Source: Mobula birostris (taxonomy: Eukaryota). Taken from it: a stretch of 64,000 bases of DNA. Under the pieces are notes generated by a model. It was not told the DNA's origin, made no database searches, and saw nothing but the letters and a program-made list of their open reading frames with translations. Where the stretch lies: NCBI RefSeq assembly GCF_030028105.1, contig NC_092401.1, positions 15,286,984 to 15,350,983 of the forward strand, read 5' to 3'. The translations under genes and the position numbers were made by a program. Positions 1,479 to 41,805 of the stretch are shown one piece after another (position 1 is the first letter of the stretch; the number at the start of each line of letters is the position of its first letter).

Positions 1479-1550
1479 TCTTACGGAGCTGCGAAATCTC
1501 GTCCTGAATTGTGGCGATGGAGCTCAGAGTCTGCTCGGAGCTTTTTATAG
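1479..1550 (-). CDS. Neck-repeat exon, 72 nt (copy 1)
   Basis: ccttttcag| ... |gtaagt; phase 1-1; [24 protein letters not shown]. Confidence 0.8.
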
Positions 1551-40500: not shown

Positions 40501-41805
40501 ATAACTGCGGTGACGATAGCCACAACGGACAGCAAGATGCAGACACCCAGGAGGGTATAGATCACCCTGAGAGAGATATTTCTTCTGGCAGGCTCCATTG
40601 GCTGGACACGGCTCTCTGCAAAATTTAAGTGAAAAGCATCACTGAGAGGAAGATGTGGAATCCAAATCTTTCCTGATTTGGATACGGGAAGAGCCGAAAT
40701 TTGACCGTCCAACAACAAACTTCACACTATAAAATTCGTTCTCCTTCGTATGTTAGACATAAAATTCCACAGGGAACAGAGCGGGTGCATGTTCTGTATA
40801 TTTCCAGAAGAGCATGTTTTCAATTTTGGGAGCGTGTAAGACCAGGGGATGCAACCTTAAAATCTAAGGATCGCTTTAGAACAGAGAGGAGGAGAAATAT
40901 CTTTACCTAGAGATGGTCTACCTGTGGAAGTAATTGCAACAGACAGCTGTGGAAGGCAATCCTTGGGTTTATTTAAAACGGGGGTTGATGAGCACTTGAA
41001 CTGTTATGGCATCTGAGGTAGCAGGAGAATGGCATTGAGAGGGAAAATAAACCAACCAAGATCCAATGGTGAAGCATAATCCATGGACCGATTCGCCTAA
41101 TACTTCTTAAATTCTGTTCCTGAATCATCTCAACATTCCTATAATCTTTCTACGAATAAAGCTTTCAGCTGGTAATCCTCGGATTCACTGTTTCACCTTC
41201 TCTGCATTTTATTCAAAGGAGTAGGATTTGCTATTCTTCAATTCATCTTCTTCTTCAGAATGTTGCGGAAGATGATAAAACTCCCCGGGCAGGGAATATA
41301 TATATACTGGAACCTTTGGGTAGTAAATGCATTCTCCCAGACTAGCCTTATACAAAATTAAATGGCATTCTACCCTCTCATATCATTCGCACTTCAACGT
41401 GTCCCTTCACTCAATTTCACATTCAACAGTTTTACCTCAATCTCTCCACATATAATTGGTCATAAGAGAAGAACGCTTGACGTTCTTGGGGATATCCATG
41501 CCAGTTTCAGGTTATGTTAGTATAAATTCCCTCTGAAGAAAAATCATTTAAATCTCTTCTACCATTTAAATGAATTCAGCCTTTTGAGGATTTCCACCGA
41601 CAACATATACTCTCGAATGTCCTTTTTACTTCCTTTATTCGATCTGAAAAAGTCGCTAAATTGTTGCTCAGTAATTTAGAAGTAACACGTGAAATAGGCC
41701 ACGTTGGCATTTACCTGGCTGCGAAGATTCTCCTTGGACACACGCTCTTTCATTTTGGCATTCAAAATGTTCTTTGACATTTTCATAAAAATTTTCAAGC
41801 TCCAT
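1479..41805 (-). CDS. Multi-exon type II transmembrane protein, probably a CD209/CLEC4/FCER2-type C-type lectin receptor (5' part only: tail, TM, neck; lectin domain expected left of position 1)
   Basis: Exons 41715-41805, 40496-40615, (32693-32734), 16040-16105, 12371-12442 and 1479-1550 have canonical GT donors and, for the internal exons, AG acceptors, all phase 1. They join in frame to [154 protein letters not shown]. Family assignment is inferred from architecture and neck similarity. That all exons belong to one transcript is inferred. Confidence 0.7.
2936..4323 (+). mobile_element. CR1-clade LINE, 5'-truncated
   Basis: RT motifs [29 protein letters not shown]-terminal LVRPHLEYC; (cttatgg[t/a])n tail; 5-bp TSD gattc at 2931-2935 and 4324-4328. 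Confidence 0.95.
4572..7040 (+). mobile_element. CR1-clade LINE, 5'-truncated and frameshifted (endonuclease end plus RT)
   Basis: [34 protein letters not shown]; (tttctatg)n tail. Confidence 0.95.
7835..8025 (-). mobile_element. SINE body fragment
   Basis: Antisense ...ccacccagctgaaaatggttaccggcaaaatgctggggttaacctcgcgatagactggcgtcc... resembles the conserved central domain of tRNA-derived SINEs; head not seen. Confidence 0.5.
9241..9472. repeat. Diverged 110-bp tandem repeat (~2 units); also at ~15316-15545
   Basis: caaagctc[t/c]ttt starts at 9241, 9351 and 9461; internal ctgctgacatttctgt is repeated. Confidence 0.7.
9668..11662 (-). mobile_element. CR1-clade LINE, 5'-truncated
   Basis: Minus-strand ORFs with [27 protein letters not shown]; 3' tail at 9668-9690. 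Confidence 0.95.
11663..12030 (+). mobile_element. CR1 3' end fragment
   Basis: Similar to 3940-4320; paralogous to 17497-17710. Confidence 0.85.
12371..12442 (-). CDS. Neck-repeat exon, 72 nt (copy 2)
   Basis: ccctttcag| ... |gtaagt; phase 1-1; [24 protein letters not shown], heptad I/L pattern. Confidence 0.8.
12826..13498 (+). mobile_element. Non-autonomous retroposon with (aatct)n tail; same family as 22012-22673
   Basis: GC-rich 5' part, AATAAA then ctcataatctaatctaatcta; clear similarity between the two copies. Confidence 0.8.
13955..14480 (-). mobile_element. Rex1/Babar LINE 3' fragment
   Basis: [18 protein letters not shown]...LQRVVKTAQ...PSGRRYRS; (aatct)n tail. Confidence 0.9.
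16040..16105 (-). CDS. Neck-repeat exon, 66 nt
   Basis: tttatttgcag| ... |gtaagt; phase 1-1; [22 protein letters not shown]. Confidence 0.75.
16615..17165 (+). mobile_element. Decayed CR1 RT fragment
   Basis: Similar to 2936-3275 and upstream RT region (aggtggataaatctcctg..., gactggaaaattgcaaatgt). Confidence 0.85.
17170..17490 (+). mobile_element. RTE-clade LINE 3' fragment inserted in CR1
   Basis: [13 protein letters not shown]...NENV...[17 protein letters not shown]...[13 protein letters not shown], typical of the RTE/BovB-type C-terminus. Confidence 0.75.
19527..21498 (-). mobile_element. Rex1/Babar LINE, internally deleted
   Basis: ORF 20104-21048: [51 protein letters not shown]. Same subfamily as 48833-50998. 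Confidence 0.95.
21503..23082 (-). mobile_element. CR1 3' fragment interrupted by the 22012-22673 element
   Basis: [11 protein letters not shown]...[30 protein letters not shown]. Confidence 0.9.
22012..22673 (+). mobile_element. Non-autonomous retroposon with (aatct)n tail
   Basis: ggggggagaagatagcggcg start; AATAAA plus taatct repeats; paralog of 12826-13498. Confidence 0.8.
24608..27230 (-). mobile_element. CR1-clade LINE, 5'-truncated (endonuclease end plus RT)
   Basis: [37 protein letters not shown]. Confidence 0.95.
27235..28360 (-). mobile_element. Highly decayed Rex1/Babar-like fragment
   Basis: Residual nucleotide similarity to the Rex1 3' half seen elsewhere in the window. Confidence 0.45.
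28945..30757 (-). mobile_element. Penelope-like element (RT plus GIY-YIG endonuclease), 5'-truncated
   Basis: 453-aa ORF 29340-30701: [56 protein letters not shown]. Confidence 0.95.
29008..29043 (-). ncRNA. Minimal hammerhead ribozyme-like motif in Penelope 3' region
   Basis: agtc-CTGACGA-agggtctcggcct-GAAA-tgtc-gact; stem I intact, GAAAC>GAAAT. Confidence 0.5.
30810..31240 (-). mobile_element. Decayed CR1 3' fragment
   Basis: Similar to 21715-21990 and 24830-25250. Confidence 0.75.
32693..32734 (-). CDS. Candidate 42-nt internal exon of the lectin-like gene
   Basis: Acceptor ttttctttcctgccgtcaacag|, donor GAG|gtatga, phase 1-1, open reading (I)[13 protein letters not shown]. No homology evidence. 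Confidence 0.4.
32870..37085 (+). mobile_element. Near full-length, decayed CR1 LINE (ORF1 Zn-finger/leucine zipper/esterase, endonuclease, RT), interrupted by Rex1
   Basis: ORF1 ECSTCRIWE...DDYTC...[16 protein letters not shown] at 33070-33280; esterase and endonuclease remnants 34300-34930; RT remnants 35500-36950; 3' tail ~37060-37085. Confidence 0.9.
33285..34120 (-). mobile_element. Rex1/Babar 3' fragment with (ctgatt)n tail
   Basis: [15 protein letters not shown]...RKKLQKVV...LPSGRR. Confidence 0.9.
37140..37715 (-). mobile_element. Penelope-like 3' fragment containing an (AAAT)n microsatellite
   Basis: Similar to 28950-29470. Confidence 0.9.
37201..37233 (-). ncRNA. Minimal hammerhead ribozyme-like motif
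   Basis: tc-CTGACGA-agggactcggccc-GAAAC-GTC-gac; catalytic core intact, stem I weakened. Confidence 0.5.
37790..38170 (-). mobile_element. CR1 ORF1 fragment
   Basis: Similar to 8480-8830. Confidence 0.7.
39884..39942 (-). pseudogene. Possible second decayed neck exon
   Basis: catag| ... |gtgagt. One frame reads [14 protein letters not shown] (cf. [12 protein letters not shown]), but the 59-nt length breaks frame. NVGKV recurs at ~32340-32380 behind another acceptor. Confidence 0.35.
39978..40057 (-). pseudogene. Dead neck exon (pseudo-exon) of the lectin-like gene
   Basis: Acceptor ctgttttccgtag|. 3' end gag gaa ata tcg c-- ctg aaa aca a|GGAAGT aligns to the live exon end gac gag att tcg cag ctg aat aac a|GTAAGT. 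In-frame stops, a frameshift and a GT>GG donor. Confidence 0.55.
40496..40615 (-). CDS. Lectin-like gene, transmembrane exon
   Basis: Acceptor aattttgcag|, donor |gtaagt, 120 nt, phase 1-1. (E)[39 protein letters not shown]: basic residues precede a ~23-aa hydrophobic span, as expected for type II topology. Confidence 0.85.
40745..41100 (+). mobile_element. Decayed CR1 3' fragment in lectin intron 1
   Basis: Similar to 3940-4285. Confidence 0.7.
41715..41805 (-). CDS. Lectin-like gene, first coding exon (cytoplasmic tail with YENV motif)
   Basis: aaaacATGG Kozak context; [30 protein letters not shown](G); donor CAG|gtaaat; 91 nt, phase 1. Confidence 0.75.

What the first reader, a model, noticed from the sequence alone, without database searches (positions are those of the whole stretch)
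1479..41805. Hidden lectin-like receptor with a DC-SIGN-like neck built one exon per repeat
Seen: six small minus-strand exons spread over 40 kb of TE debris splice in frame into tail (YENV), TM and three coiled-coil repeats [IL]QDEISQL, each repeat on its own symmetric phase-1 exon (66, 72, 72 nt). Known: DC-SIGN/L-SIGN have 23-aa neck repeats (IYQELTQLKAAV) inside one exon, whereas CD23/FCER2 encodes its 21-aa stalk repeats on separate exons. Inference: this gene combines a DC-SIGN-like repeat sequence with CD23-like exon modularity. Neck length, and so oligomerisation and reach, could be tuned by exon skipping or exon copy number, and the gene may reflect an ancestral state of the CD209/CD23 family.
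Basis: partly seen in the sequence, partly recalled or inferred. Interest (0 to 1): 0.8.

Follow-up and report, generated by a model that had tools for sequence, protein, structure and literature searches.

The report
Ray C-type lectin with exon-modular neck
This is a real, spliced, already machine-annotated ray gene for a membrane C-type lectin that likely binds mannose-type sugars; its stalk is built from small exons that were copied and lost among neighbouring gene copies, and the claimed kinship to the DC-SIGN repeat was not found.

Summary
The gene is real but neither hidden nor shown to be DC-SIGN-necked. Five (not six) minus-strand exons in the window, plus four exons 3-15 kb to its left, splice into a 293-aa protein identical to RefSeq XP_072104393.1 (labelled Mobula birostris): YENV tail, transmembrane helix, helical neck, C-type lectin domain with EPN/WND. 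Contigs of 4 of 4 runs (one study) join the neck exons at GT-AG sites. Each neck module is one phase-1 exon. A fifth neck exon has lost its donor and is skipped, and RefSeq isoform X2 equals skipping of 12442-12371. The gene is one of seven tandem lectin genes with differing neck-exon numbers, within about 0.6-0.8 Mb of TRAPPC5 and NDUFB7, recalled as neighbours of the human FCER2/CD209 and CLEC17A loci. The repeat is 24 aa, the 72-nt units lack DC-SIGNR's helix-breaking proline, and two PDB searches found no DC-SIGN or CD23 neck. The repeat copies are young (86% intron identity) and the lectin domain falls in a cartilaginous-fish clade, so they are a lineage-specific expansion rather than an ancestral relic. 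Verdict: ordinary new member of the group II C-type lectin receptors, with a tidy example of neck tuning by exon gain and loss.

The parts
41715..41805 (-). Coding exon 1 (91 nt): start codon and cytoplasmic tail with Y7-E-N-V
40496..40615 (-). Exon 2 (120 nt, phase 1-1): rest of tail and transmembrane helix (type II anchor)
   Evidence: helix 46-73 in the AlphaFold model
16040..16105 (-). Neck exon 1 (66 nt, phase 1-1). Paralogous exons have a second AG 6 nt upstream that would make it 72 nt; here that AG is absent
   Evidence: joint to 12442 in 4 of 4 runs
12371..12442 (-). Neck exon 2 (72 nt, phase 1-1); skipped in RefSeq isoform X2
   Evidence: skipping it reproduces P0015 exactly
1479..1550 (-). 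Neck exon 3 (72 nt, phase 1-1). The gene continues left of the window on G000:C37: 57-nt neck exon 15284262-15284206; donor-dead 66-nt neck exon 15281455-15281390 (skipped); lectin-domain exons 15280322-177, 15278157-048, 15272209-062
12082..12693 (-). Duplicated block (exon plus intron flanks), 86% identical over 613 bp to 1189-1801
   Evidence: blastn
1189..1801 (-). Duplicated block around neck exon 3
   Evidence: blastn
15807..16324 (-). Older duplicated block around neck exon 1, 67% identical over about 530 bp to the block around neck exon 3 (E 3e-34)
   Evidence: blastn

Best explanation
The exons encode the N-terminal half of a spliced type II membrane C-type lectin receptor of a ray, one of a tandem cluster, which likely binds mannose/fucose/GlcNAc-type sugars through its EPN/WND calcium site and is predicted to be held off the membrane and clustered, likely as a trimer, by a helical coiled-coil neck. 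Shown: gene structure (9 exons, 293 aa), splicing of the neck and neck-to-lectin junctions, the lectin motifs, one phase-1 exon per neck module, different neck-exon numbers among paralogues, and loss of one neck exon by donor mutation. Because every neck exon begins and ends in phase 1, copying, skipping or losing one changes the neck by 19-25 residues (about 3-3.5 nm at 0.15 nm per helical residue) without shifting the frame. Inferred: sugar specificity (from EPN), oligomer state (Ile/Leu core pattern, likeness to Ile-zipper trimers), a role in pathogen capture, and use of the conserved YxN tail motif for phosphotyrosine docking (Grb2-type) or endocytosis. It is likely co-orthologous, as part of a cartilaginous-fish expansion, to the mammalian CD209/CLEC4G/FCER2/CLEC17A group, not one-to-one with any of them.
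For: Nine-exon model equals RefSeq P0001 letter for letter. Lectin_C 96 bits over residues 183-285; six cysteines, WIGL, D225, E229, EPN, E259, WND conserved in an 18-row alignment. Joints at CT..AC in 4 of 4 runs: 16040>12442, 12371>1550, neck exon 3 > 57-nt exon > first lectin exon, leaving out the donor-dead exon (donor reads ATACGT where paralogues have GTAAGT). AlphaFold: one helix 80-159, block pLDDT 79-91 over residues 81-150; Foldseek top hits are group II lectin domains. Neck exons: 7 in gene A, 4 used +1 dead in this gene, 5 in C, 4 +1 truncated in D (paralogues from DNA only). Tree of 64 lectin domains: starred clade of 27 chondrichthyan rows (97/97), within it 11 stingray/manta rows (95/98). 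TRAPPC5 at C37:14.43 Mb and NDUFB7 at 14.26 Mb. YxN in the first 16 residues of 17 of 28 shark/ray proteins, isoforms and partial models included. EPN = mannose-type: PMC4681411; YXNX = Grb2 SH2 target: PMC2709368 (passages).
Against: No binding, oligomer or tissue data. RNA is from one study, held as contigs, library type not on record. No neck-skipping joint other than the dead exon appeared among the joints shown (24 rows were not shown); skipping of live exons rests on RefSeq models whose read support I could not see. The lectin loop region 224-259 of the model is low-confidence. RefSeq X3 includes the exon I call donor-dead, with a junction residue the genome letters do not give. Deep tree branches are unresolved and no mammalian CD209, CLEC4G, CLEC17A or ASGR sequence was in the tree. 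Human gene order is recalled, not looked up; the LRRC8 gene on C37 could not be assigned to LRRC8E and Tim44 was not found.
Confidence: 0.82

Rival explanations
1. One reading: the repeat is homologous to the DC-SIGN/L-SIGN 23-aa repeat, forms a segmented tetramer, and preserves the ancestral CD209/CD23 neck with one exon per repeat.
Against: Unit 24 aa without the conserved proline of DC-SIGNR (PMC2971551, passages); prolines only at 77 and 81. Repeat copies young: flanks 85-86% identical, like orthologous flanks between genes B and C. The strict repeat motif was found only in stingray/manta proteins, 0 in skate, sawfish and shark rows. Short coiled-coil repeats can diverge past detection, so remote homology is not excluded.
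Confidence: 0.1
2. The gene is a decaying duplicate: transcribed, but with neck exons turning over neutrally and no dedicated function for neck-length variation.
For: The cluster holds damaged copies: gene F has an in-frame stop, D lacks detectable tail/TM exons and has a truncated neck exon, E has a diverged last exon. Neck exons are barely more conserved than their flanks between young copies (90% vs 85-86%; 85% vs 85-87%).
Against: Open 293-aa frame with all calcium ligands and cysteines intact; fully spliced contigs in 4 of 4 runs; intact relatives in other rays. This argues against a dead gene but not against neutral neck variation.
Confidence: 0.15

Closest known systems
Group II C-type lectin receptors (type II membrane, single long-form CTLD), fish 'CD209-like' tandem clusters
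   Same: Tail-TM-neck-CTLD order, six-cysteine domain in three exons, lineage-specific tandem expansion without clear tetrapod orthologues (as described for Fugu DC-SIGN-F1-F8, PMC514892, passages)
   Different: Cartilaginous-fish clade; visibly repeated 24-aa neck exons expanded in stingrays and mantas
DC-SIGN / L-SIGN (CD209, CLEC4M) and mouse SIGN-R genes
   Same: EPN lectin domain about 42-44% identical in structure alignments; repeated neck whose copy number varies (3-9 repeats in L-SIGN, PMC2193415; mouse paralogues differ in repeat number, PMC2211941)
   Different: DC-SIGN repeats are 69 bp inside exon 4, 23 aa, proline-kinked tetramer; here 72-nt exons, 24 aa, predicted continuous helix, no detectable sequence match
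CD23 (FCER2)
   Same: Heptad coiled-coil stalk, trimer (PMC6791321, passages); separate exons per stalk repeat (recalled, not found in the passages read); recalled neighbour TRAPPC5
   Different: Repeat 21 aa (recalled) versus 24; no stalk match; FCER2 rows group with turtle CLEC4G, not with the ray genes
MGL (CLEC10A), ASGR1, langerin
   Same: Trimeric coiled-coil neck; MGL has splice forms differing by 27 aa in the neck (PMC3671775, passages); top Foldseek hits
   Different: MGL/ASGR are galactose-type (QPD, recalled); different locus (recalled)
Prolectin (CLEC17A)
   Same: Mannose/fucose binding, tail tyrosines of YxN type binding Grb2 (PMC2709368, passages); recalled neighbour NDUFB7
   Different: Prolectin has a long multi-motif tail; the ray tail is about 45 aa with one tyrosine motif

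Membership tests
Group II C-type lectin receptor | Type II topology: N-terminal tail, single TM, no signal peptide, C-terminal CTLD | tested here: met
Group II C-type lectin receptor | Single long-form CTLD with six cysteines, WIGL, split over three exons | tested here: met
Group II C-type lectin receptor | Calcium/sugar ligands (EPN or QPD, E, WND) | tested here: met
   E251-P-N253, E259, W270-N-D272; sequence only
Group II C-type lectin receptor | Helical neck that oligomerises | tested here: inconclusive
   Helix 80-159 predicted and hydrophobic periodicity seen; oligomer not modelled or measured
Group II C-type lectin receptor | Calcium-dependent glycan binding | not testable with these tools
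   needs an assay
DC-SIGN/L-SIGN (CD209/CLEC4M) proper | 23-aa proline-containing neck repeats within one exon | tested here: not met
   24/22-aa units, one exon each, no proline in 72-nt units, no PDB match
DC-SIGN/L-SIGN (CD209/CLEC4M) proper | One-to-one orthology in a CTLD tree | tested here: inconclusive
   No mammalian CD209 in the tree; the gene sits in a chondrichthyan expansion, which excludes one-to-one orthology for this copy alone
CD209/FCER2/CLEC17A (19p13) group | Conserved neighbourhood | tested here: inconclusive
   TRAPPC5 and NDUFB7 within about 0.6-0.8 Mb of the cluster, a Sec1-family gene 10 Mb off on the same contig; Tim44 not found; human order recalled
CD23 (FCER2) | CTLD groups with FCER2; stalk similarity | tested here: not met

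The most novel reading that the evidence does not exclude
The ray cluster descends from the locus that gave mammals CD209, CD23, CLEC4G and CLEC17A, and rays tune receptor reach with a cassette system: 72-nt phase-1 neck exons are copied, switched off by single donor mutations, trimmed by 6-nt tandem acceptors and donors, and skipped, producing a graded set of stalk lengths (and mixed oligomers) under selection, an exon-level counterpart of the human L-SIGN length polymorphism that arose independently.
Probability: 0.25. Interest if true: 0.5.

Novelty: new member of a known kind. Interest (0 to 1): 0.24.

Why it matters
Modestly. Innate glycan receptors of cartilaginous fish are little studied (searches listed no paper on this cluster), and the cluster gives a clean natural series for asking how stalk length affects ligand capture and for rooting the CD209/CD23/CLEC17A family. 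But variable necks, tandem expansion and neck splice forms are all known in this family, and the gene is already in RefSeq.

Tried and rejected
Sixth exon in the window: self-blast, six-frame motif search and a splice-site scan of the long intron found none credible. DC-SIGN/CD23 neck homology: not found by phmmer, profile search or blastp. Other downstream domain (SRCR, collagen, TNF): rejected, the domain is Lectin_C. No run is on record as RNA; the type was judged from spliced joints. Contig depths were not used for expression level. Synteny markers: Tim44 gave no match, DIX genes are not on C37 (0 of 8 matches), the LRRC8 gene on C37 could not be named LRRC8E. CD23's and mouse SIGN-R exon-per-repeat layout was searched for in print and not found in the passages read; PMC140574 is not held. 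Earlier scan notes: none. No supplements were read.

Full report
Observation. Five minus-strand exons lie at the stated places: 41805-41715 (91 nt), 40615-40496 (120), 16105-16040 (66), 12442-12371 (72), 1550-1479 (72). All have GT donors, the internal four AG acceptors, every junction is phase 1, and together they read [10 protein letters not shown]..., a hydrophobic helix, and three [IL]QDEISQL units. The motif occurs 3 times in the window and 0 times in 30 of 30 shuffles. The three neck exons share their intron flanks (86% over 613 bp; 67% over about 530 bp), so they arose by duplication of exon plus flanks. No sixth exon was found in the window.

The rest of the gene. The window is G000:C37:15286984-15350983. 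Left of it are three exons of a C-type lectin domain, each matching Pfam Lectin_C (E 0.004, 1e-5, 1e-9). Four runs of one study hold the last exon. Their contigs join 16040>12442 and 12371>1550, then neck exon 3 to a 57-nt exon I had missed, and that to the first lectin exon, in 4 of 4 runs, all at CT..AC. The nine-exon model (91, 120, 66, 72, 72, 57, 146, 110, 148 nt) is letter for letter RefSeq XP_072104393.1, labelled Mobula birostris. So the gene is expressed and already annotated; isoform X2 is named 'CD209 antigen-like protein C'.

Neck modularity. A fifth neck exon (C37:15281455-390) is homologous to exons of paralogues A and C but reads ATACGT where they have GTAAGT; the RNA contigs pass over it. 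RefSeq X2 equals skipping of 12442-12371 exactly. RefSeq X3 includes the dead exon with a junction residue the genome does not give, which I cannot explain. RefSeq isoforms of two stingrays also differ by whole 24-aa units, and one lacks the TM exon; these are automatic models. Among the joints shown none skipped a live neck exon (24 rows not shown). The 66-nt exon looks like a 72-nt unit that lost an upstream tandem acceptor: paralogues read TTTAG-TTGCAG, this gene TTTAT-TTGCAG, and the RefSeq model of paralogue C uses the longer form.

The cluster. In 654 kb examined there are seven lectin genes: F (QPD, in-frame stop), A (7 neck exons), E (diverged last exon), B (this gene, 4 + 1 dead), C (5), D (4 + 1 truncated, no tail/TM exon found) and G (QPN, opposite strand). 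Paralogue structures come from DNA only. A tree of 16 neck exons with flanks splits them into three old types shared by A, B and C, with repeated copying afterwards (two D copies sister, 96/93; the two 72-nt B copies sister, 83/82, not starred). Flank identity between the two B copies (85-86%) equals that between B and C orthologous exons (82-90%), so these repeats are about as young as the gene duplication.

Relatives. A tree of 64 lectin domains (129 columns) puts this gene beside C (98/90), in an 11-row stingray/manta clade (95/98), in a 27-row chondrichthyan clade (97/97); FCER2 with turtle CLEC4G, CLEC4E/4A, and reptile/bird CLEC17A-like rows lie outside and deep branches are open. I chose 60 of the 159 proteins held plus four genomic paralogues, leaving out near-duplicates, isoforms and non-vertebrate rows but one; no mammalian CD209, CLEC17A or ASGR was available. 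TRAPPC5 and NDUFB7 lie at 14.43 and 14.26 Mb, about 0.6-0.8 Mb from the cluster's edge; from recall these flank human FCER2 and CLEC17A on 19p13. DC-SIGN, DC-SIGNR and CD23 being one 19p13 cluster is in PMC2211941 (passages). Tim44 was not found and the LRRC8 gene could not be assigned. Co-orthology with that group is therefore likely but not proven.

Is the repeat DC-SIGN-like? DC-SIGN/L-SIGN repeats are 69 bp in exon 4 (PMC2193415, passages), 23 aa, four-helix bundles broken by a conserved proline (PMC2971551, passages). The ray unit is 24 aa with core spacing 3-3-4-3-4-7 and no proline in the 72-nt exons; AlphaFold gives one helix 80-159 (monomer, 18-row alignment, mean pLDDT 69). The 88-aa neck found no lectin neck among 55 PDB hits to E 10, the best being GCN4-fusion and designed coiled coils; a 13-exon profile found 2 unrelated hits. 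The strict motif was seen only in stingray and manta proteins among 28 examined, though sawfish and shark necks match weakly by blastp. The likeness is generic coiled-coil; remote homology cannot be excluded for so short a unit.

How it likely works. Shown: structure, splicing, motifs, exon turnover. Inferred: the EPN/WND site binds mannose-type sugars (rule in PMC4681411, passages, which also notes exceptions); the Ile/Leu neck oligomerises, more likely as a trimer like CD23 and MGL (PMC6791321, PMC3671775, passages; about 60:40, the complex could not be modelled); YENV, with YxN kept in 17 of 28 shark/ray proteins, fits both a Grb2 SH2 site (YXNX, PMC2709368, passages) and a YxxPhi uptake signal (recalled). 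Phase-1 symmetry lets any neck exon be gained or lost in frame. Whether that variation is selected is untested; neck exons are hardly more conserved than their flanks.

Novelty. Variable neck repeat number among paralogues (mouse SIGN genes, PMC2211941), length alleles (L-SIGN, PMC2193415, PMC3261175), neck splice forms (MGL, PMC3671775) and fish-specific tandem clusters (PMC514892) are in print; all papers were seen as passages only. Ten searches listed no paper on this ray cluster. CD23's exon-per-repeat layout is recalled, not verified. Verdict: new member of a known kind, interest 0.24.

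Noticed in passing
G000:C37:15281455-15281390 (L011, L051:1791-1856): Neck exon with a dead donor, skipped in RNA contigs; RefSeq X3 includes it with a junction residue (Y) that the genome letters would read as D
   Followed up: partly
G000:C37:15555713-15555564 (gene F): QPD-type paralogue with an in-frame TAG at the end of the first lectin exon; likely pseudogene
   Followed up: partly
G000:C37:15119499-15070180 (gene D): Paralogue with neck and intact lectin exons but no tail or TM exon found upstream; one neck exon truncated at 15116437; could be a fragment or be spliced from gene C's 5' exons
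   Followed up: partly
G000:C37:15180991-15180917 (gene C): Neck exon whose usual donor reads GAAAGT; an in-frame GTAAGA lies 6 nt upstream. The same tandem donor is present in window exons 12442-12371 and 1550-1479
   Followed up: no
window 14578-14492 (-), 8515 (-); G000:C37:15191713-15191618: A repeat-derived stretch present 8 times in the 654 kb appears as a 32-33-aa insert in RefSeq necks of paralogue C and of a stingray gene: exonised repeat or annotation artefact
   Followed up: partly
window 49107-50495 (-), 20107-21168 (-), 5367-6065 (+): Retrotransposon remnants with Pfam RVT_1 matches
   Followed up: yes
window 29343-30797 (-): 485-aa open frame without a Pfam match at E 0.01; looks like a transposon remnant
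   Followed up: no
G000:C37:4551891-4552016 (L074): Another EPN C-type lectin exon 10.7 Mb away on the same contig
   Followed up: no
P0002 (Hemitrygon isoform X3): Annotated stingray isoform lacks the TM exon while keeping tail, neck and lectin domain: possible soluble form
   Followed up: no
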